From positions 684-64,683 of IMG/VR virus record IMGVR_UViG_3300034061_001224: 64,000 bases of DNA, one strand, 5' to 3'. Source of the DNA: a virus (taxonomy: Duplodnaviria; Caudoviricetes). The notes below the pieces were generated by a model, which saw nothing but the letters and a program-made list of their open reading frames with translations, was not told the origin of the DNA and made no database searches. The translations under genes were made by a program, and so were the position numbers. Positions 226-54,748 of the stretch are shown here, piece after piece (the stretch's first letter is position 1; each line of letters begins with the position of its first letter).

Positions 226-747
226 TTATACTACATACTGTGCCACAAACTCATGGGCACCGTCTAGCAGAAACTGCTCTACCTTTACCACAGGCATTTT
301 GCGGTTGTGCCCGTAAGATAACGCAATGCTACTTGACCCTATATATACTCCTTCACCTGCTAAGTCGTTAATAAAGTCCATGTATTGTGCTTTCCCACCA
401 CACCATTTACGCAGTACTGCACTTGATATAGACAATAAGTTAATATCCGCATCAAATCGCACTACGGGCTTTGTGGTGGGTATTAAAAGCGGTGGTTGTT
501 CTAGCCCACCGCTTAGTTTTGCATATCCTATACATAGACTGTACTTATGGTCTTGTATAAACGCATGGAGTTTCTCATCTATTTGGGTACGTCTTTCGTG
601 TTGTACCTGTGCGTACTCGTCTGGGTGTAGTGCTTGTAGGGCTTCTAGTTCCTTTTCGAACCTATAATTTAACTGGTTTGCATGGAGTTGTAGCAACTCT
701 GTGTATCGTACATGTAATGCATGGGCTTTCTCTTTATATAGGTTCAT
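226..747 (-). CDS. stand-alone paralog of the primase-helicase C-terminal domain
   Basis: IGYAKLSGGLEQPPLLIP..RFDAD..LSISSAVLRKWC..VKVEQF aligns with the C-terminus of 43502..46324. AGGAAA RBS upstream. Confidence 0.8.
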   Translation of the reverse strand: MNLYKEKAHALHVRYTELLQLHANQLNYRFEKELEALQALHPDEYAQVQHERRTQIDEKLHAFIQDHKYSLCIGYAKLSGGLEQPPLLIPTTKPVVRFDADINLLSISSAVLRKWCGGKAQYMDFINDLAGEGVYIGSSSIALSYGHNRKMPVVKVEQFLLDGAHEFVAQYVV

Positions 748-789
748 GGCTTTTCCTTTTATAGAATGTTGGGTGTTAGGTTATTGGTG

Positions 790-1662
790 TTAAGCGTATA
801 TACGGATTGCACTTGCTTCAGCCTTGGCTCTCTTAGCTTCTCTGATGTTAAACTCCGCTACTTCTGTAACTGTTAGTACTGCATACTTGCCGTCTACACA
901 CCGTATACGTCGATTAGTGTCTCTATGTGCAAAAAAATCATCGAATATATTGGCCTCTTCTAGGGTTATTTTCTTAGCGTTCAGCAACTCTACGATCCTA
1001 TCTCTTGGGCTATACATCCCAGAGTTTAATAGTGTGCGTAACTCACCCATCTTGTAGTCGATTATGGCTTGCGCTCCGGCACCGCTTAGCTCCCAGACTG
1101 TTTTCTTATGCGCACGTTTGGCACGTTCCAAGTCATATGCCTCAAAGTACCCTACATGCGTCTTAACGCGTTTAGATATGAGCTTAGTTGGCCTTGACGT
1201 CCAGCCTTTGGTTTTCTCACCCTCTAATGGCACTTCTTCCCATGCATTGGTTATGACATCAACTCTGTATTTACCTGCATGTATTCCAGATTTGCATAGG
1301 GTTATACCAGCCACGCCTGACTCGTTTTTGCATTCTCTAGCTGAGGTAGATAGGTATAGGTTTTCGATTCTAGTATCGAATGAGTCACCGTTTTTATGAA
1401 GCACTTGATGATCTGGATACGTGCCTTTGTGGTATAGCCATATTAGATTGGCAAGTGGGTGTGTTGCACCCAATAGATAAAGCATTCGTTTATCACTGGT
1501 TTTATGCACAGTTATTTTTGAGTATCGTCTCATGTAGTTGTCGGTATCTGCCTCGTGTATGGTTAGTGGTATTAACTGCCCTGCAAAGGCGCCTGCACTG
1601 ATGTATGCATAGCGACTTTTTAGTTGGGTTTGGGTGGGTTTATTTTTGGTTTTTCTTGCCAT
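790..1662 (-). CDS. HNH endonuclease-like protein with AP2-like segment
   Basis: LIWLYHKGTYPDHQVLHKNGDSFDTRIENL (HNH_3-like), then NESGVAGI..HVGYFE..AKRA. Start moved to MARKTKNK at 1662. Confidence 0.7.
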   Translation of the reverse strand: MARKTKNKPTQTQLKSRYAYISAGAFAGQLIPLTIHEADTDNYMRRYSKITVHKTSDKRMLYLLGATHPLANLIWLYHKGTYPDHQVLHKNGDSFDTRIENLYLSTSARECKNESGVAGITLCKSGIHAGKYRVDVITNAWEEVPLEGEKTKGWTSRPTKLISKRVKTHVGYFEAYDLERAKRAHKKTVWELSGAGAQAIIDYKMGELRTLLNSGMYSPRDRIVELLNAKKITLEEANIFDDFFAHRDTNRRIRCVDGKYAVLTVTEVAEFNIREAKRAKAEASAIRIYA

Positions 1663-2051
1663 TCTGGGAACCTTTTGGTTGTTGGTACATAAATTGAGGG
1701 TGCTTGAATAGTGTATCAGAGGTGAATGGTACGCACAATGGGGGGGTGTTAAATTATGTACGATGACAGCACAAACACATAAAACGAGAGAGCTTGAAAT
1801 GTGTACTAAAGTGGACAGAGTGCCCAAAAGGCTTGGTACGCAACTCAAGAATGGGCGTTTGGGGTGTGAAAATGAGGTAAGTACGGCAGATGGGGTGTGC
1901 TTGATTTACGCGCAATGGAGTTTGGTACAGATGGAACCGACTATCTTCAACTCGAAAAAAACGGATAGTGTTTGAATATGTGGGGGTATTGGTTGGAAAC
2001 TTGAAATACATACTAAGCATTTCTTTACTTTGGAAATAAAAAAACGAATAT

Positions 2052-2077
2052 GAGAGAGAGAGAGAGAGAGAGAGAGA
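2052..2077. repeat. (GA)13 microsatellite in an AT-rich non-coding region
   Basis: Read directly from the sequence. An (AAT)n run follows at about 2153-2172. Confidence 0.9.
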
Positions 2078-2411
2078 AAACGGCAAAAAACGCAAAAATT
2101 CTCAGGGGGGCTATTAATTAATTTATTTATTAAAGAATTACTTAGTATATAGAATAATAATAATAATAATAAACCCTCATTTTCTGCGTGCTGCGGGAAT
2201 TTTTGAGTTCACGCAACTCGGTGCTTTCTGTCCCAAACTCCATTGCACGCAGAACGCGCGCCTACTACGTAGTAACCTAAACCCTATTTTTGCCCCCTAA
2301 CCCTTTAGGAACGGGTATCAACCCTTTTCTGCGGGCAATAAAAAACCTGCATTAAGCAGGTTCGTTTTAAGACACGATAATTTTTAAGTGCTACCCAAGT
2401 ATTCCAGATAT

Positions 2412-2435
2412 AAAAAAAGCCCCGTGAAGGGGCTT
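2412..2435 (-). terminator. Rho-independent terminator
   Basis: AAGCCCC-GTGAA-GGGGCTT hairpin with a T tract on the minus strand, downstream of 2456..2692. Confidence 0.75.
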
Positions 2436-2455
2436 AGATTGGCTTTAATCACTAT

Positions 2456-2692
2456 TTAATCAAGGGATATAGCACTATAGATAGCCAAAATCCCACCAGA
2501 TAGGATACAAAATGCCTTTGTTGAGTTGCTTACTGTATCGCAGTCGTTGGCAAGTGCCATTAAGAGCGCCCCCATGCCTAACATCGCCACGGCAAATAGC
2601 ACGTCAATTAATGTTAAGTATTTTTGCATATCAACACCACCTGAATTGTTGCGTTCTACTGTGTACCATGTACCGTTAAAATAAGTTTTCAT
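2456..2692 (-). CDS. small membrane protein
   Basis: AAGGA RBS and two hydrophobic segments. The true start may be the internal MQKYLTL. Confidence 0.5.
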   Translation of the reverse strand: MKTYFNGTWYTVERNNSGGVDMQKYLTLIDVLFAVAMLGMGALLMALANDCDTVSNSTKAFCILSGGILAIYSAISLD

Positions 2693-2753
2693 GTGTATTT
2701 TTCCTTTTAAGAATTTAACTAAGGGATAAAAATTGATAACCTGTGTTCACAGG

Positions 2754-3461
2754 TTATTTAATCGACGGCAATTTATGAGCCATTTCCAGCGCATCTTCAA
2801 GAGCTGATAATAAGTCTTGTGATAACGGACTGGATTTCAAATCGTTTACTAGCTCAATTAATTCAGGCAATACAAGTTCAAATACTTGCTTAACAGGCTT
2901 ATCCTTAGTTTTAATGTGCGTTTCGAGTACACCTTTTGTTGCGGACTTTTGATCCGCTTGCGATTTGGCCGCTTTGTCGCGACTTGGGTTGCTACTGAAC
3001 TTTGTGCCGTCCTTAATACATGTGCGGATAATGCTTAGATAATTGCTTTTAGTTTGGTCAGCAAGTTCGCCCATGGCATACCATAAGGCGGCAGCATTCG
3101 GGCAGTTTTTATCCTTGTAGCCAATTTCAACCTTAGCAACCCTCAGCGGGGTTATTAGGTCATTAATACTCTTAACGATGCCCGCTCTAAGCTGGGTAAT
3201 GGTTTTAGCTTCTTTTTTAATCCCTTCAATTGCTAAACCATACTTAGCTTTAATCGCGGCAATTTCCGCATCGCGCGCGGTTTGTTGCGTCTTGGCCTCT
3301 AACAATGCCTTTTCGTGGGCTATACCCACGTTTGCGTAATTGTTTAACTTTTGTCCAAGTTCTAGCAGTAAAATTTCAGTCTGTGTGACGTTTGCTACAA
3401 CATCCGCTATAAACTGCTCCTCATTTTTATTTAAAACTTGTTTAACTGCTTTATTTGCCAT
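2754..3461 (-). CDS. hypothetical early protein
   Basis: 235-aa ORF with GGAG RBS and an upstream promoter. Confidence 0.75.
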   Translation of the reverse strand: MANKAVKQVLNKNEEQFIADVVANVTQTEILLLELGQKLNNYANVGIAHEKALLEAKTQQTARDAEIAAIKAKYGLAIEGIKKEAKTITQLRAGIVKSINDLITPLRVAKVEIGYKDKNCPNAAALWYAMGELADQTKSNYLSIIRTCIKDGTKFSSNPSRDKAAKSQADQKSATKGVLETHIKTKDKPVKQVFELVLPELIELVNDLKSSPLSQDLLSALEDALEMAHKLPSIK

Positions 3462-3536
3462 GGTAAAAACTCCAATAATTATATTCAGCGGCTATCTTGC
3501 CGCGTATTAGTTGGGCTATCTGCTCAACATGGGTAC

Positions 3537-3973: not shown

Positions 3974-4513
3974 ATGGAAGAGCACCTTTGCATAGACCCG
4001 CCGTTGGATAACCCCAACGAGATAACAGCCATGCTGACCCGAGCTAGGGAGTGCTTCACTATGTCTGCCTCTTTCTTAGAAATGATGGGGTTTGATTTGC
4101 CTGAACCCACGGCAGATGACAAGAAGGAAGCTATGCAGATTTATCACTCTGCACCTAACGCCCCAACTAAGCCTACTACACTAGGTGCAGCAGTTATTCT
4201 CGACCGTATGCTTGCTAAGCACGATTACGTTTTAGCAGACCCATCTAATAAGATGCGTAACTACGTTGTCTACAAACTATTCGAACATGCCGAAAGCGAA
4301 GACCCTAAGGTCAGTTTAAAAGCGCTTGAGTTTCTAGCGAAGTCCTCCGATGTGGGACTATTTGCCGACAAGATTGAAATTAACATTAATCAGAAGTCCA
4401 CAGTTGAGTTAGAGTCAGAATTGTCATCACTGCTTAAAGGTATTGCACAACGAAGTCTAGCACCAAAAAACAACACGTATGATGCAACTGATGCGGATTT
4501 TGTAGATGCTTAG
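3974..4513 (+). CDS. terS: probable terminase small subunit
   Basis: Directly upstream of and overlapping TerL. Typical size, with a LKALEFLAK..VGLF motif. Confidence 0.6.
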   Translation: MEEHLCIDPPLDNPNEITAMLTRARECFTMSASFLEMMGFDLPEPTADDKKEAMQIYHSAPNAPTKPTTLGAAVILDRMLAKHDYVLADPSNKMRNYVVYKLFEHAESEDPKVSLKALEFLAKSSDVGLFADKIEININQKSTVELESELSSLLKGIAQRSLAPKNNTYDATDADFVDA

Positions 4514-6917
4514 TACTTTATCTGAGGCAGATTTAAAACTGGCCCTCGCCTATGCAACACCTAGCGAAAAGATTGCTATCAATAAGATACTAGCAGAGTT
4601 GAAGCAAAGAAATTTGCGTGAAGCCGCCCAAGAAAACTTCATGGCTTTTGTTGAATATATTTGGCCAGACTTTATTAACGGGCGGCATCATCAGCGGATG
4701 GCTAAGTTATTTGAGGATGTAGCTTCAGGTAAGGAAAAAAGGATCATTATTAACTTAGGTCCTAGGCACACAAAGTCAGAGTTTGCCTCCTATTTATTAC
4801 CAGCATGGCTATTGGGTAAGTTTCCTAATAAAAAGATTATGCAGGTATCGAACACGTCAGAACTTGCAGAAGGTTTTGGTCGTAAAGTACGTAACTTGGT
4901 GGGTTCTGAACGATTCAGGGAAGTGTTTCCCGATGTTGAATTAAGGCAAGATTCTAAAGCGGCAGGTCGATGGAACACTAACAAGAACGGTGAGTATTTT
5001 GCGACAGGTGTTGGCGGCGCGTTAGCAGGTCGAGGTGCTGATATATGCATTATTGACGATCCACACACTGAAGCAGAAGCAATAGCAGCAAGAACAAACC
5101 CTGCTATCTACGATAAGACATATGATTGGTACACCTCAGGGCCTCGGCAGCGGTTACAACCTAAGGGATCTGTAGTTCTGGTTATGTGTATGACAGGTGA
5201 CACTAACGTATTAATGGCCAACGGGACAACAACGCAGTTAAAAAATATACGCGTTGGAGATGAAGTAGCTACATTTGATAAGGGCAGGTTAGGAGTAAGT
5301 AAGGTCAATAATTGGCGGTCAAGTGGTACGGATACCATATACACAGTACAAACGCAATCTGGCATAATTCTTCGAGCAAATGAGAGGCATCCGTTTCTTG
5401 TGCTTAATGAAGGGGTATTAGAATGGACCAGATTGAGATCGTTAAAACCGGGTATGTTGCTTGTAGCAATGAAGGATGTACAAGACCTGCAAGGTCACAA
5501 ATTAAACCGGGGATGTGCCATCCATGCCAAGCTAGAGAGTGCTACCATAAGAAAAACCCTGAAGCCCCTTATCACCCGATTGGGCACCATGGTAAGTGGA
5601 AAGGTAAAGCTTGCGCATGTGGAAAGCCAGCAAAAGCTAAAGGACTATGTGACTCTTGTTACTCAAAAAAATACCCGTCAGCTAAATCAACACCAGAGCA
5701 AAATAGAGCGCGACGAATTAAACACAGATATGGCATCACTGCGGAAACCTACGACCAAATGGTTGAAGCGCGTGGCAACAGATGCGATGTTTGTGGGCAA
5801 TTACCCTCTGCAAAAAATACAAGAGCTCATTGGAGCGGAAAATTATGCATCGACCATTGCCATAACACCGGAAAAGTCAGAGGGCTACTTTGCAACGACT
5901 GCAACCTCGCAGTTGGATATGGGAAGACAGCAGATATTCTCGAACGAGCTGCGGCGTATCTCCGACTTCACGACTGATCCGATAGTTAGTATCGTTTATG
6001 CAGGTAAGGAAGAAGTATTTGATGTTGAGGTAGACCGCACTGAAAATTTCATTGCTAATGGGATAGTCAGCCACAACACTCGCTGGCATGCCAGAGATTT
6101 AACAGGGCAGATAATAGAGGCATCACAGAAAAGTGATCGTATGGATCAGTGGAGACTGGTGCAGTTCCCGGCTATTTTACCTAGTGGTAAGCCATTATGG
6201 CCTGAGTTTTGGTCCCTACCTGAGCTAGAGGCAGTTAAAGCAGAGATCCCGAATAGTAAGTGGCAAGCGCAGTACCAACAAGAACCTACGTCAGAAGAAG
6301 GTGCGATTGTTAAGCGTGAATGGTGGCGAGAATGGGATAAAGGCAACCCACCACACAATATAGAGTTTACGTTAATGTCATGGGATACAGCGTTTGAAAA
6401 GCATAACAATGCTGACTATAGTGCGATGACGGTATGGGGTGTATTTAATACAGAGGATGAAGATGGGTTTGAGAGGCCCAATATCATTTTGCTTGATGCA
6501 GTTAAGAAACGTGTGGAGTTTCCTGAATTAAAGCAGTGGGTGCTTGAGGCGTATAAGGAGTGGGAGCCTGACGGGATTATTATTGAGAAAAGGGCATCTG
6601 GTGCGTCACTAATACAAGAGCTTAGACGTATGGGCATTCCTGTACAAGACTTTACACCCACTAAAGGTAATGACAAGATTTCACGACTTAATAGTGTGGC
6701 TGATATTTTTGCTTCTGGTTTTGTGTGGGCACCACAGACACGTTGGGCGGAAGAAGTAATAGATGATGTGGCATCATTCCCTGCTGGAGCGCATGATGAT
6801 ATTGTCGATACAGTCAGTATGGCGATGATTAGATTTAGGCAGGGTGGGTTCGTAGGAACTCAATTAGATGAACCCGAGGAAGAACAATACTTTAAGCGTA
6901 AAGTAGCTTATTATTAA
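4506..6917 (+). CDS. terL: terminase large subunit, intein-containing
   Basis: Walker A-like GPRHTKSE, Walker B IIDDP, VM/TRWH motif, and RNase H-like nuclease domain (SWDTA..ADYSA..FPAGAHDDIVD). Confidence 0.95.
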   Translation: MLSTLSEADLKLALAYATPSEKIAINKILAELKQRNLREAAQENFMAFVEYIWPDFINGRHHQRMAKLFEDVASGKEKRIIINLGPRHTKSEFASYLLPAWLLGKFPNKKIMQVSNTSELAEGFGRKVRNLVGSERFREVFPDVELRQDSKAAGRWNTNKNGEYFATGVGGALAGRGADICIIDDPHTEAEAIAARTNPAIYDKTYDWYTSGPRQRLQPKGSVVLVMCMTGDTNVLMANGTTTQLKNIRVGDEVATFDKGRLGVSKVNNWRSSGTDTIYTVQTQSGIILRANERHPFLVLNEGVLEWTRLRSLKPGMLLVAMKDVQDLQGHKLNRGCAIHAKLESATIRKTLKPLITRLGTMVSGKVKLAHVESQQKLKDYVTLVTQKNTRQLNQHQSKIERDELNTDMASLRKPTTKWLKRVATDAMFVGNYPLQKIQELIGAENYASTIAITPEKSEGYFATTATSQLDMGRQQIFSNELRRISDFTTDPIVSIVYAGKEEVFDVEVDRTENFIANGIVSHNTRWHARDLTGQIIEASQKSDRMDQWRLVQFPAILPSGKPLWPEFWSLPELEAVKAEIPNSKWQAQYQQEPTSEEGAIVKREWWREWDKGNPPHNIEFTLMSWDTAFEKHNNADYSAMTVWGVFNTEDEDGFERPNIILLDAVKKRVEFPELKQWVLEAYKEWEPDGIIIEKRASGASLIQELRRMGIPVQDFTPTKGNDKISRLNSVADIFASGFVWAPQTRWAEEVIDDVASFPAGAHDDIVDTVSMAMIRFRQGGFVGTQLDEPEEEQYFKRKVAYY
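5187..6077 (+). mobile_element. intein in TerL (297 aa)
   Basis: Starts CMTGDTNVLMANG (block A), has RANERHPFL (block B) and VFDVEVDRTENFIANGIVSHN (blocks F/G), with +1 Thr. Removal restores VVLVM-TRWH. Confidence 0.93.
5423..5977 (+). CDS. endonuclease VII-family nuclease nested out of frame in the TerL intein
   Basis: RYGITAETYDQM..CDVC..LCIDHCHNTGKVRGLLCNDCNLAVG motif, N-terminal CxxC pairs, and GAAGGGGT RBS at 5409-5416. Confidence 0.88.
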   Translation: MDQIEIVKTGYVACSNEGCTRPARSQIKPGMCHPCQARECYHKKNPEAPYHPIGHHGKWKGKACACGKPAKAKGLCDSCYSKKYPSAKSTPEQNRARRIKHRYGITAETYDQMVEARGNRCDVCGQLPSAKNTRAHWSGKLCIDHCHNTGKVRGLLCNDCNLAVGYGKTADILERAAAYLRLHD

Positions 6918-28003: not shown

Positions 28004-30367
28004 GTGTTAAAAAAGTTAAGTTTCAAATCAGGGATTAACCGTGAAAATACTCGCTACACCACAGAAGGTGGCTACTACGATGGGGATAAAATTCGTTTTC
28101 GTCAGGGAACACCAGAAGTTATTGGGGGTTGGGTAAAATACTCCACTACTTTTTTTCAAGGGGTCTGTCGTTCGTTGTGGAACTGGGTAACCATAAGCAG
28201 GCAAAACTTAATTGCCGTTGGCACCAATTTAAAATACTACATCAATAAGGGGGGTGCTTACTATGACATTACCCCTATTCGCTACGCGACCACATTATCA
28301 GGCCCATTTACCGCTACAACAGGGTTATCTATCATCACAGTACATAATGTTGGTCATGGTTGTGTGACGAACGATTTTGTTACCTTTAACGGAGCATCAT
28401 CTCTAGGTGGTACTATTACTGCTGCTTTGCTTAATCAAGAATATCAAGTAACTGTCGTCGACGAGGATAACTACACGATTAATGTTGATGTAAACGCCAA
28501 TAGTTCAGATACAGGCCACGGTGGTTCAGTACGCGCAGTTTATCAAATCAACACAGGTTCAGATATTCAGATACCTCAAACAGGTTGGGGTGCTGGTCCT
28601 TGGGGTTATGGTACATGGGGTTATGGGATTCCTTCCATCAACAGCATTCGCTTATGGAGCCAGAGTAACTATGGTCAAAATTTAATTTTTGGACCACGCG
28701 GGGGAGCGATGTATTACTTTGATACGTTCTCCAACACCAGTACCGTTAGAGTGACAATTAGTAATGCTACCCCTGCGGTTATTCAATTCCCGCTACAAAC
28801 CCCTTACATCAACGAAGGGACTGCGGTTTATTTAGAAACAACTGGAGATTTACCTTCTCCTTTAGCTACAGGAACCATTTATTACTTACGTAATTTTGAC
28901 AGCACAACTTATACCTGCAACATATCTGCTACGGTTAACGGGGTTTTAATTAACACAACAACTTCAGGTTCAGGTAATCAGTATATTAACCCAAGAGGTA
29001 TTAATATTGCACAGCTAGCGGGAGCAGACGCCGATACACCGATTATTCAGAATTATATTTTCGTGTCAGATATTTACCGGTTTGTGTTTGCTTTCGGTTG
29101 CGATGATTACACTACACAGCTTCAAGTGCTAATCAGTAATGCTGCTCCGGGTGTTGTGTCTTTTCCAGTGTATACGAATTATATCCCAGACGGCACGGTT
29201 ATATTTTTGACAACCACAGGCACACTGCCAGCCCCATTAGATTCTAACGTGCCTTATTATGTTAGAAATTTTGATACAGCTACATGGACATGCAACCTTT
29301 CGTATACCGCAACGGGGGGTTTAATTACAACCACAACAGCAGGAAGTGGTATACACACCGTAAATATCAAAGGTGCTCAAGACCCATTATTAATGCGCTG
29401 GTCAAACCAAGAGGACTACTTAACATGGACACCTTCTGCCACCAACCAAGCGGGTTCTTTACGCCTATCCCACGGATCACAAATCGTAACGGCTATCCAA
29501 ACTCGCCAAGAAATGTTTGTATTAACTGACTCCGCTGGTTATTCAGTGCAGTATCTAGGTGCTCCGTATGTTTGGAATGCACAGTTGATGGTGGATAATA
29601 TTTCTATTGTAGGTCAAAATGCTGTGGCACTTGCGTCAGGTGTCATTTACTGGATGGGGGTAGATAAATTTTATAAATACGATGGCCGTGCTCAAACCTT
29701 ACGTTGCGATTTAAGAGCATACATTTTTAATGATTTTAACAAATTGCAAAGTGCTCAAGTTTACGCTGGTACTAACGAAGGTTTCAATGAAGTCTGGTGG
29801 TTCTACTGTTCTGCAAACAGTACGGTGATTGATAAATATGTAGTTTATAACTACGTAGAAGAAATATGGTATTACGGTACGATGGGTCGCACTGCTTGGT
29901 TGGATAGTGGTATTTTAGATTATCCGATTGCTGCAACTTATAGTAATAATATTGTATATCACGAAAATGGTTTAAATAACTATGAAGGTGGCAGTGCGCT
30001 CCCTATTAACGCTTACATTACGACTTCTGAGTTTGACATTGATGATGGCCATAATTTTGCGTTTATTAGACGAATACTACCTGACTTAACCTTCCGTGGG
30101 TCAACTGCTGATGCACCGACTGCCACCATGTCTGTAATTCCGTTAAACAACTCAGGTTCAGGTTATACTGATCCAGCCTCTGTAGGTGGTGCAGATAATG
30201 CAGCTATCGTAAGAACAGCTACTGTGCCTATTGAAGCCTTTACAGGTCAGGTTTTTATTCGAGTACGCGGTCGTCAGTTTGCATTTAAGATTGAGTCTAA
30301 TCAACTTGATACTGTTTGGCAGCTTGGCAGTCCTAGAATAGATTACCAGTATGATGGGCGCAAATGA
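28004..30367 (+). CDS. tail hub / packaged-DNA stabilisation protein (P22 gp10-like)
   Basis: 787-aa beta-rich protein with RWS.QE, EVWWFY, RTAW.D and RVRGRQ motifs, preceding the ejection proteins. Confidence 0.7.
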   Translation: MLKKLSFKSGINRENTRYTTEGGYYDGDKIRFRQGTPEVIGGWVKYSTTFFQGVCRSLWNWVTISRQNLIAVGTNLKYYINKGGAYYDITPIRYATTLSGPFTATTGLSIITVHNVGHGCVTNDFVTFNGASSLGGTITAALLNQEYQVTVVDEDNYTINVDVNANSSDTGHGGSVRAVYQINTGSDIQIPQTGWGAGPWGYGTWGYGIPSINSIRLWSQSNYGQNLIFGPRGGAMYYFDTFSNTSTVRVTISNATPAVIQFPLQTPYINEGTAVYLETTGDLPSPLATGTIYYLRNFDSTTYTCNISATVNGVLINTTTSGSGNQYINPRGINIAQLAGADADTPIIQNYIFVSDIYRFVFAFGCDDYTTQLQVLISNAAPGVVSFPVYTNYIPDGTVIFLTTTGTLPAPLDSNVPYYVRNFDTATWTCNLSYTATGGLITTTTAGSGIHTVNIKGAQDPLLMRWSNQEDYLTWTPSATNQAGSLRLSHGSQIVTAIQTRQEMFVLTDSAGYSVQYLGAPYVWNAQLMVDNISIVGQNAVALASGVIYWMGVDKFYKYDGRAQTLRCDLRAYIFNDFNKLQSAQVYAGTNEGFNEVWWFYCSANSTVIDKYVVYNYVEEIWYYGTMGRTAWLDSGILDYPIAATYSNNIVYHENGLNNYEGGSALPINAYITTSEFDIDDGHNFAFIRRILPDLTFRGSTADAPTATMSVIPLNNSGSGYTDPASVGGADNAAIVRTATVPIEAFTGQVFIRVRGRQFAFKIESNQLDTVWQLGSPRIDYQYDGRK

Positions 30368-30425
30368 TATGTATACTGATCCTAAAAATAAGTATATACT
30401 AACCCCTATTGTTATAGGAGGTTTT

Positions 30426-31046
30426 ATGGGTAAACTTATAGATAGAACAGGGCAACGTTTTGGCAAATTAGTAGCTATAAAAGAAGTTGGAAGGAACGCA
30501 CATAAAAAGGTAATGTGGGAATGCATTTGTGACTGCGGGAGAATAACAAAAGTTAATTCTGGAGCTCTAGTTACAGGTAATACAAAATCGTGTGGATGCG
30601 AAGAAGGGTATGTAAAACATAGAGGATCGTCTAATGCTTCGTACAATACATGGCGAGCTATGCGTAGACGATGCAATAACCCTAAAGACAAAGATTATTT
30701 TAAATACGGAGCTGTTGGTATAAAAGTTTGTTCTGAATGGGAAGACTATTTAACTTTTGCTAAAGATATGGGTGAACCTGTAGGTAATGAAACTTTGGAT
30801 AGGATAGATCCTAATGGTAATTACGAGCCTTCTAATTGCAGATGGGCAGGTTGCACCATTCAAGCTAGAAATATTAGACTCCCAAAAAGAAGCACAACAG
30901 GAGTTATTGGCGTGCAATTTAAGAATAATAAATGGTATGCCCATATAACTCTTAACCGTAAAAAATATTACTCAAAAGCCTGTTTGACTAAAGAAGATGC
31001 TATTGCGGCACGAAAAGAACTTGAACGTATTCATTGGAACATCTAA
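30426..31046 (+). CDS. free-standing HNH homing endonuclease with AP2-like C-terminus
   Basis: GQRFGKL..CICDCG..AMRRRCNNPKDKDY..TLDRIDPNGNYEPSNCRWA..GVIGV..AIAARKE. AGGAGG RBS before 30426. Confidence 0.88.
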   Translation: MGKLIDRTGQRFGKLVAIKEVGRNAHKKVMWECICDCGRITKVNSGALVTGNTKSCGCEEGYVKHRGSSNASYNTWRAMRRRCNNPKDKDYFKYGAVGIKVCSEWEDYLTFAKDMGEPVGNETLDRIDPNGNYEPSNCRWAGCTIQARNIRLPKRSTTGVIGVQFKNNKWYAHITLNRKKYYSKACLTKEDAIAARKELERIHWNI

Positions 31047-50978: not shown

Positions 50979-51656
50979 TTATTGCTTCCCGTTATGAGGA
51001 CATGATAATACGTCACACCATTTCTTGCATAGCCCATTAGGTTTAGGGTTCCATACGTTAGTCTCGTATGATGCTTCTAGCTGTCTTAGTGGGGCATCAA
51101 GCTTTGCAAAAATATCAAATCGACGCTCAAAAGTGTAATCTTCTTTAACAAAGCTGTTACACACGACAAATAGCAATCCTGCTTTAATAGACTTAACTTC
51201 AGGATACATCAGGAATACAGCAGCAGCCATTAAAGCCAGCTGTTTAGTATCCGCATACTTCGCACTTTTGCCTGTTTTGTAGTCTAGGATACGTGCAGTA
51301 TCCCCATTAATAATAACAAGGTCAGCTACTCCTCTGAACCATACGTCTGGTGCAAAGAAATCACAGGCTTCTAATTTACCATCGCGTCTAGCGATGCCTA
51401 CTTTTAACTCACAATGCTTCTCACCGGGATAGGCATTAAGTTTATCTAGCAAAGGCTGAATAAATTTAAACTGGGTAGGGATGGGTTTACCATCCCTAAT
51501 GTATTCCTCAGCGGCAAGATGCAGATCTTTGCCATATATAGTGGCCTCAGAATCAGTAAACTTAACTTCTTTTGTAACCTTCTCACCTTCATATTTTTTA
51601 GGGCAAGTGATGTACGTTGAAATTGAGCTGTAGCTCCACGCTGGAATAGAAGACAT
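50979..51656 (-). CDS. PD-(D/E)XK (Cas4/RecB-like) exonuclease
   Basis: WSYSS..CP..G..H..RGVADL..DYKTGK..QL..C.WC....C. Confidence 0.85.
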   Translation of the reverse strand: MSSIPAWSYSSISTYITCPKKYEGEKVTKEVKFTDSEATIYGKDLHLAAEEYIRDGKPIPTQFKFIQPLLDKLNAYPGEKHCELKVGIARRDGKLEACDFFAPDVWFRGVADLVIINGDTARILDYKTGKSAKYADTKQLALMAAAVFLMYPEVKSIKAGLLFVVCNSFVKEDYTFERRFDIFAKLDAPLRQLEASYETNVWNPKPNGLCKKWCDVLSCPHNGKQ

Positions 51657-51668
51657 TGATACCCGTTC

Positions 51669-54503
51669 TTATTTAATTTTCCCCATTTTAAAATCCAAGC
51701 TAGGCCCGTAACCACCCTCTGCATCTAATGGAATATCTGGCATCCAAGCAGGGGGTATTCGTAACTGTTCAATCACAAAACGTAATACTGAATCAGCCTC
51801 ATTTTCAGGGGCTAATAGATACACTGCGTCATGGATCGTAAGCAGGATACGATGTTTCTTTTCAATGCGTAGCATGGCTTCTGCAATAATACATCTGGCC
51901 ATTGCTTGTGTCAGGCCTTGAAATACTTTGCTGCCATACAGTTTATCACGTTCGCGTCTATTTTTCAGAACCGACCATTCCATGCGTGGGCCTTTAGTAG
52001 TTTGAACTGCTGTTTGCTTTAAGTCTGGGTACCGCATATGCAGACCCGATGGCAACATCGCGCCTTCTGACCCATATACTTCAATGATATTGTCCCGTCC
52101 CATCCGCATATACTGATTATCACGTACTGCGTACAGTACCTGTTCACCTTGCTCCCATGTGTTTACTACGTGGGTGTACTCGTTTCGATATAGCTTAACC
52201 ATACGTTTAGCTTCCGCTTCACCTATATCAATTCCACTCATTTGTTTAGTCTGTTGTCGTAATTTGTTGTGTCCTGTCCCGTAGATTAAACTGAGCTGAC
52301 AATTTGAAACTAGCTTTCCACCCACAGTAAACCTGTGCCTAGGTCCAGCATTTAGTATGTCGTAGACTTTTCTAACCTTTCTTTTAGGTTGCGCCATCCC
52401 TTGCATTTGCTGTGCACGGAGTCCCAAGCTTGCGCTATTATCTGTTCCCCCGTTAACCCCATCCGTGTGTATTTGCATACTGTTGACGCCTGCACATAAG
52501 GATTTTCTTTCCACTGAGGCAGTGGTATTTGCACTCCCTTCCAACTCACATGTAAAGTATTCCGCCTGTTTGCTGTTTGCTCTTTCATCGAAGCAAATCT
52601 CAGATTTCCCGCTGCGTAATGCCCGTTGTTGTTTATCCGGTCTACTGTAAGATCTATCGAACAGCTTGGTAAAGTTTTCATATACAGCACACATTCCGCT
52701 ACTGAACCAAACATAAACTGAATACCACGGGCTCCATAATTTTTGTATCCTTTGTCCTTTGGATTGGTGCATCGTTGATGCATTGCATTCGCTCGTTTCT
52801 GCAGTCTTTGTGTTAGATTGTCTTCTACCAGTAGATGTTGAGCTTGTCCATGTCGTTGTGTCAATGCACAACTGTGGCATTGTTTGCTCTTCCCTGACAT
52901 TAAATTGTCCGAAGTTTGCCAAGCCTCTTTCCCACAAAGGCATCTCACCTGTATATGTGGTACTTGCCTCTTGCCTTTTCTGCATATATCTAGCGAGATT
53001 ATCTCCCATGAGTGAAATCTCTTGCCCTTCATCTCCGGTGATAACGATTTGATAACCTTTATTGGCGGCTTCTTGGAACTCGCAGGTTGAACCATCTGAT
53101 AAATATACGATATGGTCTGGTGTTGCTGTAAGGTGTTGGTATGTGATGACATCTCTTTCTCCTTGGAATATAAGCCCATCGTGGCTAACCCATTCTACCC
53201 CATCCCATACTTTATCATCTAATAAAACTGTTTCTATGGGTTTAAGCCCCTTATCAGTTAATACTAATTCACCCTCGGCTATACAAGTTTTACCCATAAA
53301 CCGCTGTGAATCGGTTACTTCGGTATACCCTATGTTATAAACCTGTGAGGCAAAGTCTTTATACAAATCAACACCCCGTCCCAGCGCTGCTACCTTATCC
53401 ATCTGGCCTCCAAATGCTAGGCCTAACCGTAATTCGATAGCTGATAAGTCAGCACCTACAATCACATAACCTTCAGGAGCGACAATTGCGCTTTTCAGTT
53501 TAGACTTGCGAGGAAGATTTTGTAGATTGACCGAATCCGTCGCACTCCACCTACCTGTTCTGGCTCCGTAATACAACAAAGGTACAGGTAATAAGCTACT
53601 TCTGTTGGGGCGTTCAGCAATTGCGATAAACCGCTGACTGCGGGTCTCTTCAAGTGTAGATTTAGTGCCCAGCCTAGCTGCAACAACCGCTTGTACCCTA
53701 GGGTCATCATGTTCAGCTAAAGCTTTAAATCCTTCATCAGTCTTGGCAAAGGCATAAGTCTCTACGCCTTTACTATTAAACTTCATCGGAGGTTCAACAC
53801 CAAACATATCAAGCACTGAAGCAAACTTCTGGTTAGACATTAAGTCTTCTTTACTGACCCCGCAGTCTATTAGCAACTGTTCTTTTTGCTGCTGTACATC
53901 TGCTAAGTGAGCTTCTAATACATCTCTATCTAATAACAGCTGCGGGTCGGTGTACATCCTAATGGTTATATCAATTAGCTTTAATTCTGCTGTTGTGAAC
54001 TTAGGACGCATTGCCATAAACAGTTTATACGTCAGCTCTACGTCATTGGTGCAATACCCAGCATATGCCTCGATTTCAGCTTCAGAGAAATCAGCTCTTC
54101 GCATACCAATAGCGTTATGTACTTCGATACCTTTCTTACCTAACTCATAATACTCGGCTAATGCAGCTAAACTACCACCTACTGATACTGCGTGTAACGC
54201 ACGTGCCATACTCAGAGTACATACAATTGCCTTAGGGTGAATACCGAATCGCCAACCAAGAATAGCACCATCAAACATGGCATTGTGAGCAACAACCATA
54301 CTATTAGCCCAATCAAACTGAGATAACCACTGCTTAGTAGCTTCAAAAGACCCAGTAAACCATTGGGTCTTCTCGTTATTTTTCTTTACAGCAATACCGA
54401 TAGCTTCAAAGCGAAAGTCATTTACATATGCTTCCGTAGTCATCTTAGACAACGAGTATTCTTTTGAGTAAAAAGATTCAAAGTCGAGTGTTAGAAGGTT
54501 CAT
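51669..54503 (-). CDS. polA: family A DNA polymerase, intein-containing
   Basis: Exo DFES/AHNAMFD, TGRWS..NLQNLP, motif A DLSAIELR, motif B R..GKT/CQLSLIYG, motif C TIHD. Start moved to 54503 (TGATG overlap). Confidence 0.93.
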   Translation of the reverse strand: MNLLTLDFESFYSKEYSLSKMTTEAYVNDFRFEAIGIAVKKNNEKTQWFTGSFEATKQWLSQFDWANSMVVAHNAMFDGAILGWRFGIHPKAIVCTLSMARALHAVSVGGSLAALAEYYELGKKGIEVHNAIGMRRADFSEAEIEAYAGYCTNDVELTYKLFMAMRPKFTTAELKLIDITIRMYTDPQLLLDRDVLEAHLADVQQQKEQLLIDCGVSKEDLMSNQKFASVLDMFGVEPPMKFNSKGVETYAFAKTDEGFKALAEHDDPRVQAVVAARLGTKSTLEETRSQRFIAIAERPNRSSLLPVPLLYYGARTGRWSATDSVNLQNLPRKSKLKSAIVAPEGYVIVGADLSAIELRLGLAFGGQMDKVAALGRGVDLYKDFASQVYNIGYTEVTDSQRFMGKTCIAEGELVLTDKGLKPIETVLLDDKVWDGVEWVSHDGLIFQGERDVITYQHLTATPDHIVYLSDGSTCEFQEAANKGYQIVITGDEGQEISLMGDNLARYMQKRQEASTTYTGEMPLWERGLANFGQFNVREEQTMPQLCIDTTTWTSSTSTGRRQSNTKTAETSECNASTMHQSKGQRIQKLWSPWYSVYVWFSSGMCAVYENFTKLFDRSYSRPDKQQRALRSGKSEICFDERANSKQAEYFTCELEGSANTTASVERKSLCAGVNSMQIHTDGVNGGTDNSASLGLRAQQMQGMAQPKRKVRKVYDILNAGPRHRFTVGGKLVSNCQLSLIYGTGHNKLRQQTKQMSGIDIGEAEAKRMVKLYRNEYTHVVNTWEQGEQVLYAVRDNQYMRMGRDNIIEVYGSEGAMLPSGLHMRYPDLKQTAVQTTKGPRMEWSVLKNRRERDKLYGSKVFQGLTQAMARCIIAEAMLRIEKKHRILLTIHDAVYLLAPENEADSVLRFVIEQLRIPPAWMPDIPLDAEGGYGPSLDFKMGKIK
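52302..53285 (-). mobile_element. intein in DNA polymerase motif B (328 aa)
   Basis: Starts CIAEGELVLTDKG, has TATPDH (block B) and VYDILNAGPRHRFTVGGKLVSN (blocks F/G), with +1 Cys. Removal restores RFMGKT-CQLSLIYG. Confidence 0.92.
52352..53152 (-). CDS. HNH homing endonuclease nested out of frame in the polymerase intein
   Basis: GKRFHSW..CLCG..CHSC..AMHQRCTNPKDKGYKNYGARGI..TVDRINNNGHYAAGNLRFA..NRR. AAGGAG RBS 6 nt before the ATG at 53152. Confidence 0.88.
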   Translation of the reverse strand: MSSHTNTLQQHQTISYIYQMVQPASSKKPPIKVIKSLSPEMKGKRFHSWEIISLDICRKGKRQVPHIQVRCLCGKEAWQTSDNLMSGKSKQCHSCALTQRHGQAQHLLVEDNLTQRLQKRANAMHQRCTNPKDKGYKNYGARGIQFMFGSVAECVLYMKTLPSCSIDLTVDRINNNGHYAAGNLRFASMKEQTANRRNTLHVSWKGVQIPLPQWKENPYVQASTVCKYTRMGLTGEQIIAQAWDSVHSKCKGWRNLKERLEKSTTY

Positions 54504-54748
54504 CAGAAATACCCCAAGGTATGAGCTGCCCACAATGCATTTGTGGTAATAAGCCCTGCAAACCAAAATCTTATAACCCTTCGCATCACTAAGATTTGCC
54601 CAACTGCTTGGCCTATTAAGTCTTTGTCCACCTCATCAATACAATTAGCAGACTCTCTGTAGCCTAACAAACACATAACTAATATGTGTGCTGGTATAGA
54701 TGGGTCGTACCCAAGAGGTATTGTTTTGAAACCATCAGTCTCTTTCAT
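54503..54748 (-). CDS. hypothetical protein
   Basis: Stop overlaps the polymerase start. Hydrophobic C-terminus. Confidence 0.6.
   Translation of the reverse strand: MKETDGFKTIPLGYDPSIPAHILVMCLLGYRESANCIDEVDKDLIGQAVGQILVMRRVIRFWFAGLITTNALWAAHTLGYF

What the first reader, a model, noticed from the sequence alone, without database searches (positions are those of the whole stretch)
52302..53285. Second independent case: the DNA polymerase intein hides an out-of-frame HNH endonuclease
Seen: a 328-aa intein interrupts PolA motif B (RFMGKT|CQLSLIYG) and its in-frame centre has no recognisable domain. The +1 frame on the same strand holds an ORF (52352-53179, best start 53152 with AAGGAG 6 nt upstream) with a full HNH homing-endonuclease pattern (CLCG..CHSC, AMHQRCTNPKDKGYKNYGARGI, TVDRINNNGHY..GNLRFA..NRR). 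It overlaps intein block B at its start and ends within block F, giving about 800 nt of dual coding. The nuclease family (HNH versus EndoVII), frame offset (+1 versus +2) and host gene all differ from the TerL case. Inference: two independent occurrences in one genome argue against assembly error and for a recurrent architecture of intein plus overprinted homing endonuclease.
Basis: partly seen in the sequence, partly recalled or inferred. Interest (0 to 1): 0.92.

Follow-up and report, generated by a model that had tools for sequence, protein, structure and literature searches.

The report
Polymerase intein with overprinted nuclease gene
A self-splicing protein insert (intein) in this phage's DNA polymerase gene also encodes, one base out of step, a separate and selected nuclease-like gene; the layout is real and widespread in phages, but this kind of two-frame intein was first described in 2025-2026.

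Summary
The only family-A DNA polymerase of this 64.7-kb phage (51669-54503, minus strand) carries a 328-aa class-1 intein in motif B (52302-53285). Its ends model as a Hint fold. Its in-frame centre (residues 85-299) has no predicted structure. The +1 frame holds a 266-aa ORF (52352-53152) with AAGGAG 6 nt before its ATG. It matches phage families labelled 'HNH endonuclease' and models with high confidence.

Both frames have 0 stops and the third has 22. None of 20,000 synonymous shuffles keeps the polymerase frame open. The same layout occurs in Streptococcus, Gardnerella and Salmonella Jerseyvirus phages and in metagenomic contigs. There, substitutions are mostly synonymous in the nuclease frame and non-synonymous in the polymerase frame.

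The nuclease is not a canonical HNH: Arg replaces the catalytic His in 50 of 50 aligned members. Its best structural match is PacI, which also lacks that His. The TerL case (endonuclease VII, +2 frame) is also confirmed.

The kind is already in print (2025-2026 preprints, other nuclease families). I found no report of this PolA/His-less variant. This scan has noted the same layout on other genomes. Splicing, translation of the nested ORF and cleavage are untested.

The parts
51669..54503 (-). Family-A DNA polymerase gene (precursor, 944 aa from the ATG at 54503; the frame stays open up to a TTG at 54566). It is the only PolA in the genome.
53286..54503 (-). N-extein: 3'-5' exonuclease domain and polymerase domain up to motif B (...QRFMGKT).
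   Evidence: PF00476 profile positions 26-213
52302..53285 (-). Class-1 intein, 328 aa: Cys1, block B T55..H58, block F VYD, terminal Asn328, followed by Cys+1. The penultimate residue is Ser, not His.
53034..53285 (-). N-terminal splicing region (intein residues 1-84). Block means of pLDDT are 91-95 for residues 1-80.
52389..53033 (-). In-frame centre of the intein (residues 85-299). It is stop-free, poorly conserved, has no Pfam domain, and its pLDDT block means are about 22-37. Read here as a disordered linker.
52302..52388 (-). C-terminal splicing region (intein residues 300-328; blocks F and G, ...VYDILNAGPRHRFTVGGKLVSN).
52352..53152 (-). Nested +1-frame gene, 266 aa plus stop. A 4-Cys zinc ribbon (C71, C73, C92, C95) is followed by a His-less His-Me finger core (R127, C128, Y139, G140, D171, R172, Y179, N183, N195) and a C-terminal helical domain. 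An upstream in-frame ATG at 53179 would give 275 aa.
53159..53164 (-). Shine-Dalgarno-like AAGGAG, 6 nt before the ATG at 53152. It lies inside intein codons ...QGERDV...
51669..52301 (-). C-extein, starting CQLSLIYG... (rest of motif B and the palm/thumb part).
   Evidence: PF00476 profile positions 215-378
30351..31046 (+). Free-standing paralogue of the nested gene (231 aa, 30% identity). It has 17 and 34 stops in its two other frames.
5423..5977 (+). Companion case: endonuclease VII gene in the +2 frame inside the TerL intein (TerL 4506..6917; intein about 5187..6077).

Best explanation
This is a composite mobile element in motif B of the phage's only family-A DNA polymerase. It consists of a class-1 intein whose endonuclease slot holds a separately translated gene in the +1 frame of the same strand.

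Shown here: both frames are kept open. The nested frame is under purifying selection in relatives. The polymerase frame across the overlap is constrained mainly to stay stop-free. The ends of the in-frame product model as a Hint fold and its centre as disorder. The nested product models with high confidence.

Inferred mechanism:
1. Ribosomes reading the pol mRNA in frame 0 make a precursor. Its roughly 215-residue unstructured linker is removed with the intein by protein splicing, which rejoins ...RFMGKT to CQLSLIYG... and restores motif B.
2. Other ribosomes start at the internal AAGGAG-N6-ATG and make a 266-aa nuclease-like protein: a zinc ribbon, a His-less PacI-like His-Me finger core and a helical DNA-binding tail.
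3. In mixed infections this protein cuts or nicks intein-free polymerase alleles near motif B. Repair from the intein-bearing genome then copies intein and nested gene together (homing).

Origin (inferred): a free-standing phage homing-endonuclease gene invaded a mini-intein. The pair then spread between very different polymerases.
For: Dual coding in the window.
- Stops are 0, 0 and 22 in the three frames, and 0 of 20,000 synonymous shuffles leave the pol frame open.
- None of the 73 codons at risk of creating a pol-frame stop ends in T, against 54 of the other 202.

Family of the nested ORF.
- PHROG 374 E 1.9e-26 and PHROG 3377 E 2.1e-23, both labelled 'HNH endonuclease'.
- 227 database proteins at E <= 0.001; the best is 71% identical over 100% of the query.

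Conserved layout.
- The nested ORF's homologues lie in another frame of annotated polymerase CDSs: Streptococcus phages Javan113 and Javan255 and Gardnerella phage AB1 (+1), Salmonella phage AG11 (+2).
- Of 46 loci from viral and metagenome scans, 16 are nested, each with 0 host-frame stops. One row (L041) was dropped as a script artefact. The other 29 are free-standing, with 3-26 and 8-42 stops in their other frames. Some loci are the same contig held in two collections.
- All 4 newly found host ORFs that I scanned (of the 16 nested loci) hit DNA_pol_A, 2 of them above Pfam's cut-off.

Selection, counted as differing codons, synonymous/non-synonymous:
- L006 vs L007: 33/20 in the nested frame, 10/45 in the pol frame. 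40 of 69 differing bases fall on the nested frame's third codon position.
- Javan113 vs Javan255: 25/11 against 4/30.
- AG11 vs L008: 14/8 against 6/16.

Identity. Nested-frame identity exceeds centre pol-frame identity in 21 of 21 pairs, for example window vs L022 52.8% against 27.0%.

Translation signal. An ATG with an SD-like motif 6-10 nt upstream sits at the equivalent place in 10 of 11 loci examined. L023 has only AAGG.

Structure.
- Nested protein: mean pLDDT 88.
- In-frame intein: block means 91-95 for residues 1-80 and 87-91 for 301-328, but about 22-37 for 91-300. Its best matches are inteins: Mtu RecA intein Z 16.6, rmsd 2.5, 119 aligned; 31 chains at Z >= 8.

Mobility. The intein is more conserved than the exteins: window vs Javan113 is 55-57% in the splicing regions against 28% in the extein.

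Decay stages. PhiSdyV1524 has a nonsense codon in the nested frame only. Javan422 has a 168-aa mini-intein that has lost the nuclease core. In both the pol frame stays open.
Against: - Nothing here shows that the precursor splices, that the nested ORF is translated, or that its product cleaves DNA.
- The window's intein has Ser instead of the usual penultimate His. Its nearest relative L022 shares this, which argues against recent damage but does not prove activity.
- The nested protein lacks the catalytic His of HNH enzymes (Arg172 in 50 of 50 sequences).
- Pfam finds no nuclease family.
- Fold matches are weak: Foldseek's best is E 0.22, and VIA-align gives PacI Z 5.4, below the level the tool calls safe.
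- No close DNA relative of the window itself was available. The nearest locus is 52% identical in the nested protein, so the synonymous/non-synonymous evidence comes from other lineages.
- No promoter-like site lies inside the intein on the coding strand.
- The RNA around the internal start folds no better than shuffles, z 0.06. So nothing is known about how the nested gene's expression is controlled.
Confidence: 0.8

Rival explanations
1. The nested gene is real and selected, but its product is not a homing nuclease. It could be a DNA-binding protein, for example a regulator or a targeting partner for another nuclease, that evolved from a His-Me finger enzyme which lost its catalytic histidine.
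For: Arg replaces the general-base His in 50 of 50 aligned members. The classification of His-Me fingers (PMC5714182, passages read) lists His-less groups that lost nuclease activity, such as the Smad MH1 domain. There is no Pfam nuclease hit.
Against: The same paper says PacI lacks the His and uses a tyrosine from the loop between the two strands. This family has an invariant Tyr179 in that loop, and it lines up with the 'GY' of PacI in the profile alignment. PacI is the best structural match. D171, N183 and N195, which sit at the usual metal-site positions, are invariant or nearly so. The patchy distribution, the decay forms and an intein more conserved than its exteins all fit a mobile element.
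Confidence: 0.13
2. In this particular phage the nested ORF is a relic that is no longer expressed or active, open only because it has not yet picked up a stop. Only the mini-intein function matters.
For: Relatives show such decay: a nonsense codon in PhiSdyV1524 and a deleted core in Javan422. No close relative of the window allowed a direct test of selection in its own lineage.
Against: The window's ORF is full length and has every invariant family residue. It keeps the SD and ATG. It is 71% identical to a database protein over its whole length and 52% to L022. Against L022 the nested frame is far better conserved than the pol frame (52.8% against 27.0%).
Confidence: 0.05
3. The nuclease is made as a fusion by programmed ribosomal frameshifting from the polymerase frame, not from its own start codon.
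For: Both ORFs are on one mRNA and one strand. No internal promoter-like site was found.
Against: An SD-like motif and ATG are conserved at the start of the nested frame in 10 of 11 loci, in both the +1 and the +2 layouts. The nested frame is closed by a stop 5-14 codons upstream of that ATG in the window. I did not look for a slippery site, and Rfam found no element.
Confidence: 0.02
4. It is an artefact: two compensating indel errors around an in-frame endonuclease, or a chance open frame.
For: None found.
Against: The pol frame has 0 stops where shuffles give a mean of 10.6. The same layout is in isolate genomes from several laboratories and in metagenomes. A search of longer proteins (467-2000 aa) found no in-frame fused form, which is weak evidence.
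Confidence: 0.005

Closest known systems
Actinobacteriophage 'non-canonical' inteins with the homing endonuclease in a separate frame or strand (Gosselin, Arsenault, Gogarten, bioRxiv 10.1101/2025.01.02.630785; abstract, sections 8 and 15 and found passages read)
   Same: The splicing domain is intact in the extein frame. The in-frame centre has no recognisable structure. An endonuclease ORF related to free-standing phage endonucleases is written in another frame. The proposed origin is invasion of an intein by a free-standing gene. The TerL case in this window (endonuclease VII, +2 frame = 'frame 3') matches their type D.
   Different: Their only same-strand out-of-frame type is endonuclease VII-like, and their HNH inteins are in-frame. 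Here the nuclease is a His-less PacI-like His-Me finger, the host is PolA motif B, both +1 and +2 layouts exist, and the hosts are phages of Streptococcus, Gardnerella and Salmonella plus uncultured phages. Their Figure 3E names 'DNA polymerase' among the hosts. I could not see the figure or supplements, so I cannot say which type sits there.
Cyanobacterial dnaX intein with an out-of-frame (+2 ORF) LAGLIDADG endonuclease (Phillips, DeSimone, Gogarten, bioRxiv 10.64898/2026.09.14.751524; abstract and section 17 read)
   Same: The selection pattern depends on the frame: low dN/dS in the endonuclease frame and relaxed constraint in the extein frame across the overlap. Secondary invasion of a mini-intein is proposed. 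Mini-intein alleles coexist with full ones.
   Different: Cellular gene, LAGLIDADG family, different host protein.
ShiLan domain and Pacc40 gp60 insertions: hidden out-of-frame HNH genes in phage DNA methylases (Arsenault et al., Genes 2025, PMC11855218; abstract and found passages read)
   Same: The host frame runs through an inserted endonuclease gene without stops, and the nuclease is in another frame. The Pacc40 insert's BLASTP hits include 'AP2 domain-containing protein' and 'HNH endonuclease'. The same labels are attached to relatives of the nested gene here.
   Different: Those insertions have no splicing domains, so the extra residues are thought to stay in the methylase. Here a complete intein removes them.
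PacI restriction endonuclease (PDB 3m7k/3ldy), group 20 of the His-Me finger superfamily (PMC5714182, passages read)
   Same: Zinc-binding motifs lie beside a beta-beta-alpha core. The motif is 'DR' where other HNH enzymes have 'DH'. A Tyr sits in the loop between the strands. PacI is the best structural match (Z 5.4, rmsd 3.4, 80 residues aligned, model residues 108-200), and there is a weak profile match (E 0.05).
   Different: Sequence similarity is marginal. PacI is a restriction enzyme, not a mobile-element gene. No activity has been shown for the phage family.
Jerseyvirus DNA polymerase intein as annotated in GenBank (e.g. Salmonella phage vB_SenS-Ent3, NC_024204: mat_peptide 'intein, encoding splicing domains')
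   Same: Same insertion site and same 299-aa boundaries as I derived for AG11 and its relatives.
   Different: The record notes splicing domains only. None of the 7 records with a full-length intein that I opened (Javan113, Javan255, PhiSdyV1524, AB1, AG11, VT223, Ent3) annotates the nested ORF as a gene of its own.

Membership tests
Intein (class 1, Hint fold) | N-terminal Cys/Ser nucleophile and block B TxxH | tested here: met
   Cys1, Thr55 and His58 are invariant in 10 of 10 aligned inteins.
Intein (class 1, Hint fold) | C-terminal Asn followed by Cys/Ser/Thr at +1 | tested here: met
   ...KLVSN|CQLS. Asn328 is invariant. The penultimate His, which is usual but from recall is not obligatory, is Ser in the window and in L022.
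Intein (class 1, Hint fold) | Hint fold built from the N- and C-terminal regions | tested here: met
   Predicted model only: Mtu RecA intein Z 16.6, rmsd 2.5, 119 aligned; gp41-1 intein Z 16.1; 31 chains at Z >= 8. Pfam gave no Hint or intein hit on the whole precursor at E <= 0.1.
Intein (class 1, Hint fold) | Protein splicing activity | not testable with these tools
   Indirect only: this is the sole PolA gene and the insert splits motif B.
HNH / His-Me finger nuclease | Beta-beta-alpha core | tested here: inconclusive
   The model has strands at 169-172 and 184-187 and a helix at 189-194. The best matches are PacI at Z 5.4, Gme HNH at Foldseek E 0.22 and I-HmuI at profile E 0.072. All are weak.
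HNH / His-Me finger nuclease | Catalytic His (general base) at the end of strand 1 | tested here: not met
   Arg172 (D-R-I) in 50 of 50 aligned sequences. It aligns with the His of the I-HmuI 'VDHKD' motif.
HNH / His-Me finger nuclease | Conserved Asn residues of the motif (structural Asn; metal ligand on the helix) | tested here: met
   N183 is invariant and N195 is conserved in at least 90% of sequences.
HNH / His-Me finger nuclease | Match to a curated HNH profile | tested here: not met
   No Pfam family at E <= 0.1 and no meaningful NCBIfam hit. Only PHROG families labelled HNH match.
PacI-like His-less His-Me finger (group 20 of PMC5714182) | His absent and a Tyr in the loop between the strands takes its role | tested here: inconclusive
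   Tyr179 is invariant and lies between the two strands. It lines up with the Tyr of PacI '...FEGYSPQN...' in a sub-threshold alignment. Its role is not testable here.
[quoted passage not shown] | Splicing blocks in the extein frame, an endonuclease ORF in another frame of the central region, and an in-frame centre without structure | tested here: met
[quoted passage not shown] | Purifying selection on the endonuclease frame | tested here: met
   Met in three related lineages. For the window itself there is only the identity contrast with L022.
AP2-domain homing endonuclease | AP2 DNA-binding domain (PF00847) | tested here: not met
   No Pfam hit for the nested protein or for the free-standing paralogue at E <= 0.01. 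Among the 120 listed relatives, one carries PF00847.

The most novel reading that the evidence does not exclude
The two-frame layout is a stable, selected design, not a short-lived intermediate. One ancient capture of a free-standing, His-less (PacI-like, possibly tyrosine-nucleophile) nuclease gene by a PolA motif-B mini-intein produced a composite element. It has since moved between phages of Firmicutes, Actinobacteria and Proteobacteria. It switched register once (+1 to +2, or the reverse) in the Jerseyvirus branch without ever fusing in frame. Expression of the nuclease may be tied to translation of the polymerase mRNA. A quick tree places all 14 nested genes, from both registers, plus one long-branch free-standing row on one side of a well-supported split (SH-aLRT 98), with 19 free-standing genes on the other side. 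No in-frame fused form was found (weak evidence).
Probability: 0.3. Interest if true: 0.7.

Novelty: new variant of a known kind. Interest (0 to 1): 0.52.

Why it matters
How inteins acquired their homing endonucleases is an old question. The 'splicing first' model proposes that free-standing endonuclease genes invaded mini-inteins.

This family shows several stages side by side:
- a free-standing paralogue in the same genome;
- intact nested genes in two different registers;
- a nested gene with a nonsense codon;
- a mini-intein left behind by deletion of the nuclease core.

It occurs in culturable Salmonella Jerseyviruses. In a spread sample of the phage collection, 16 of 60 rows appear to be of this kind (Javan113, a Jerseyvirus-like Escherichia phage and 14 Salmonella phages with the same query span), and 11 of these lie under a polymerase annotation. 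So splicing, internal initiation and homing can be tested at the bench.

It also matters for annotation. None of the 7 GenBank records with a full-length intein that I opened lists the nested gene, because gene callers suppress an ORF that lies inside a longer one.

The nuclease family, widely labelled 'HNH' in phage genomes, lacks the catalytic histidine. It may therefore work like PacI.

Tried and rejected
- Megablast of the polymerase gene against the phage collection found nothing.
- Pfam and NCBIfam gave no family for the nested ORF.
- phmmer of the nested protein against PDB sequences gave only chance hits, E about 1.
- Foldseek against the PDB gave no match at E <= 0.001. I therefore make no claim of a confident fold assignment for the nuclease core.
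- Group I or II intron: no Rfam match at E <= 1 over 51600-54600, and the host frame is open. Rejected.
- Internal promoter: no sigma-70-like site on the minus strand in 52200-53700.
- RNA structure hiding the internal SD: z 0.06. Nothing to report.
- In-frame fused form of this nuclease: none among proteins of 467-2000 aa. The tool itself calls this weak evidence.
- The free-standing paralogue as the recent donor of the nested gene: rejected. Identity is 30%, and the quick tree puts it on the far side of the split. That tree has SH-aLRT support only, long branches and a midpoint root.
- The TerL nested ORF's dual openness is not statistically strong on its own: the host frame is stop-free in 3,567 of 20,000 shuffles. 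That case rests on the Pfam match.
- One row (L041) was an artefact of my anchor position (a 15-aa open span) and was dropped from the counts.
- Literature. Searches found no report of an out-of-frame nuclease in a PolA intein. PMC8425127 mentions Jerseyvirus inteins only in general terms (passages). PMC6293099 describes an in-frame HNH_3 intein (passages).
- The statement that inteins can splice without the penultimate His is from recall, not from a call.

Full report
WHAT IS THERE. The window is nearly all of a 64,683-base virus record that CheckV rates as complete. On the minus strand one frame is open from 54566 to 51669. From the ATG at 54503 it encodes 944 residues. Pfam finds DNA_pol_A (E 3.5e-22) and the 3'-5' exonuclease domain.

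I aligned it with two intein-free homologues (Rhizobium phage RHph_TM3_14A, Pseudomonas phage KPP25) and three intein-bearing ones. The window has an insert between ...QRFMGKT and CQLSLIYG..., inside motif B. The insert is 52302-53285, 328 residues, from CIAEGELV to KLVSN, and is followed by Cys. A search of the whole genome with PF00476 finds only the two halves of this gene, at profile positions 26-213 and 215-378. So this is the phage's only family-A polymerase, and the insert splits it at one point of the profile.

THE INTEIN. In an alignment of ten in-frame inteins of this kind, Cys1, Thr55 and His58 (block B), Val307-Tyr308-Asp309 (block F) and Asn328 are invariant, and the centre is barely alignable. 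An AlphaFold model built on that alignment has pLDDT block means of 91-95 for residues 1-80 and 87-91 for 301-328. For residues 91-300 the block means are about 22-37. With the low-confidence stretch trimmed, the model matches solved inteins: Mtu RecA intein Z 16.6 (rmsd 2.5, 119 aligned), gp41-1 Z 16.1 and NpuDnaB Z 15.8, with 31 chains at Z >= 8. The penultimate residue is Ser, not His. The nearest relative, L022, shares this. Splicing itself cannot be tested here.

THE NESTED ORF. The +1 frame (54566-53179 = 1387 = 3k+1) is open from 53179 to 52352. A second ATG at 53152 has AAGGAG 6 nt upstream and gives 266 residues. Pfam and NCBIfam give nothing. PHROG 374 (E 1.9e-26) and PHROG 3377 (E 2.1e-23), both labelled HNH endonuclease, match. 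A search of 5.8 billion proteins finds 227 relatives, the best 71% identical over the full length. The model of the nested protein has mean pLDDT 88. This contrasts with the disordered in-frame reading of the same bases.

IS DUAL CODING MORE THAN CHANCE?
- Across the overlap the nested frame and the polymerase frame have 0 stops each, and the third frame has 22.
- I shuffled synonymous codons of the nested ORF 20,000 times. The polymerase frame then had a mean of 10.6 stops and was never open.
- The same test gave 0 of 20,000 for Javan113 and Gardnerella AB1, and 5 of 20,000 for Salmonella phage AG11.
- A polymerase-frame stop arises when a nested-frame codon ending in T precedes AAN, AGN or GAN. 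None of the 73 such codons ends in T, against 54 of the other 202.
- As a natural control, the free-standing paralogue in the same genome has 17 and 34 stops in its other frames. The 29 free-standing relatives from contig scans have 3-26 and 8-42.

CONSERVATION ELSEWHERE.
- tblastn of the nested protein against 50,697 phage records hits 634 records. 25 of the 30 best rows lie under an annotated DNA polymerase CDS.
- I opened records and checked register. Javan113, Javan255, PhiSdyV1524 and Gardnerella AB1 are +1. Salmonella phage AG11 is +2.
- Scans of viral and metagenome contigs gave 46 loci. 16 are nested with 0 host-frame stops, one row (L041) was dropped as a script artefact, and 29 are free-standing. 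Several loci are the same contig held in two collections.
- The four new host ORFs that I scanned all hit DNA_pol_A, two of them above Pfam's cut-off.
- In a spread sample of 60 of the 634 records, 11 rows lie under a polymerase annotation. Five more Salmonella-phage rows with the same query span are unannotated or labelled otherwise.

WHICH FRAME IS SELECTED? The counts below are differing codons, synonymous/non-synonymous.

| Pair | Nested frame | Polymerase frame |
|---|---|---|
| L006 vs L007 | 33/20 | 10/45 |
| Javan113 vs Javan255 | 25/11 | 4/30 |
| AG11 vs L008 (+2 register) | 14/8 | 6/16 |

- In L006 vs L007, 40 of 69 differing bases fall on the third codon position of the nested frame.
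- In Javan113 vs Javan255, the intein upstream of the overlap gives 9/3 in the polymerase frame.
- In AG11 vs L008, 14 of 22 differences fall on polymerase codon position 2, which is the nested frame's third position.
- Two near-identical Jersey pairs (AG11 or L014 vs L012) go the other way, with 3 differences each, all on polymerase position 3.
- Across 21 pairs of seven genomes, nested-frame identity (35-64%) exceeds polymerase-frame identity of the centre (17-35%) in all 21.
- For the window against L022 the figures are 52.8% and 27.0%.

So the nested frame is the protein under purifying selection. The polymerase frame in the overlap is constrained chiefly to stay open.

START SIGNAL. In 10 of 11 loci an ATG at the equivalent place is preceded at 6-10 nt by AAGGAG, GGAG or GAGG. 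L023 has only AAGG. These bases lie within intein codons for ...(K/Q)G.(K/R)(D/E)V... No promoter-like site lies inside the intein on this strand. The RNA around the start folds no better than shuffles (z 0.06). Internal initiation on the polymerase mRNA is therefore inferred, not shown.

WHAT KIND OF NUCLEASE? Fifty aligned members share the following residues:
- four Cys (C71, C73, C92, C95);
- R127-C128;
- Y139-G140;
- D171-R172;
- Y179;
- N183 and N195.

In I-HmuI the matching stretch reads ...VDHKDGN...NLRW...N (profile E 0.072). So the general-base His is Arg in the whole family. PacI aligns as ...VDRSDSFEGYSPQN... and is the best structural match (Z 5.4, rmsd 3.4, 80 residues). The tool warns that Z under 8 may reflect only a common arrangement.

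The classification paper PMC5714182 (passages read) states that PacI lacks the His and that a tyrosine in the loop between the strands takes its role, possibly as the nucleophile. Tyr179 sits in that loop. I therefore read the protein as a His-less, PacI-like His-Me finger enzyme. Activity is unproven, and a non-catalytic DNA binder remains possible.

MOBILITY AND DECAY.
- The splicing regions are more alike than the exteins. Window vs Javan113 is 55-57% against 28%, and window vs L024 is 46-71% against 25%. This is expected of an element that moves between polymerases.
- PhiSdyV1524 has a stop in the nested frame only, 197 of 259 codons.
- Javan422, whose polymerase is 60-64% identical to Javan113's, has a 168-residue mini-intein at the same site. 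Its +1 frame keeps the zinc-ribbon part and the tail but has lost the nuclease core, and the polymerase frame is intact.
- A quick tree puts the ten +1 and four +2 nested genes, together with one long-branch free-standing row, on one side of a split with SH-aLRT 98. Nineteen free-standing genes, including the window's paralogue, are on the other side. The search was short, the root is a midpoint and there are long branches. One origin is not excluded, and it is not shown either.

THE TerL CASE. TerL (4506-6917) has Pfam Intein_splicing (E 3e-15) and Terminase_6C. The ORF 5423-5977 is in the +2 frame and matches Endonuclease_7 at E 1.2e-18. Its host frame is stop-free in 3,567 of 20,000 shuffles, so openness alone is not significant there.

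WHAT IS KNOWN.
- Gosselin, Arsenault and Gogarten (bioRxiv 10.1101/2025.01.02.630785; sections 8 and 15 read) report 63 actinophage inteins with non-canonical endonucleases: in-frame HNH, antisense LAGLIDADG or VSR-like, and endonuclease VII-like in frame 3. They propose invasion by free-standing genes.
- Phillips et al. (bioRxiv 10.64898/2026.09.14.751524; abstract and section 17 read) show frame-dependent selection for a +2-ORF LAGLIDADG gene in the dnaX intein.
- Arsenault et al. (PMC11855218; abstract and passages read) describe hidden out-of-frame HNH genes in methylase insertions that have no splicing domains.
- GenBank records of Jerseyviruses annotate the polymerase intein as 'encoding splicing domains' only.
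- Five literature searches found no report of the PolA variant.
- This scan's own notes hold the same layout in other genomes (111 notes in at least 86 genomes match the search words). Eight were shown, and all agree with the reading here.

VERDICT. The TerL case is a new member of the published frame-3 endonuclease VII type. The PolA case is a new variant of the same kind: another nuclease family that lacks the catalytic His, another host gene, and two registers. Translation, splicing and cleavage remain to be shown.

Noticed in passing
window 4506-6917 (+); nested ORF 5423-5977: The TerL intein (Pfam Intein_splicing E 3e-15) carries an endonuclease VII gene (Pfam E 1.2e-18) in the +2 frame. 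This is the same type as the 'frame 3' endonuclease VII inteins reported for actinophage terminases. The host frame is stop-free in 18% of synonymous shuffles, so the case rests on homology.
   Followed up: partly
window 30351-31046 (+): A free-standing paralogue of the nested gene (30% identity) lies between tail-region genes, with 17 and 34 stops in its other frames. In a quick tree it groups with other free-standing genes, not with the nested ones. Pfam finds no AP2 domain at E <= 0.01.
   Followed up: partly
L056 (Streptococcus phage Javan422) 406-2832: The polymerase has a 168-aa mini-intein at the same site. The +1 frame keeps remnants of the nested gene's zinc ribbon and tail but has lost the nuclease core, through a deletion that preserves the polymerase frame.
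   Followed up: yes
L021 (Streptococcus phage PhiSdyV1524-fexAoptrA) 30-2912: The intein differs from Javan113's at 4 bases. One change makes a stop in the nested frame (197 of 259 codons), while the polymerase frame stays open.
   Followed up: yes
L023 1118-4711: This metagenomic PolA (1198 aa) appears to carry two inteins. An upstream insert starts CVCGDVEVL. The motif-B intein has Ser at +1, and its nested frame is open for only 199 codons.
   Followed up: no
L057 (Salmonella phage VT223) 346-3492; L058 (vB_SenS-Ent3) 415-3513: Annotation is inconsistent. In VT223 the whole 1048-aa polymerase precursor is labelled 'endonuclease'. Ent3 annotates the intein as 'encoding splicing domains', and its helicase intein as carrying a LAGLIDADG endonuclease. 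Neither lists the nested ORF.
   Followed up: no
window 52302-52307 (-) and L022 intein end: The penultimate intein residue is Ser (LVSN|C) in the window and in L022. Every other relative examined has His.
   Followed up: partly
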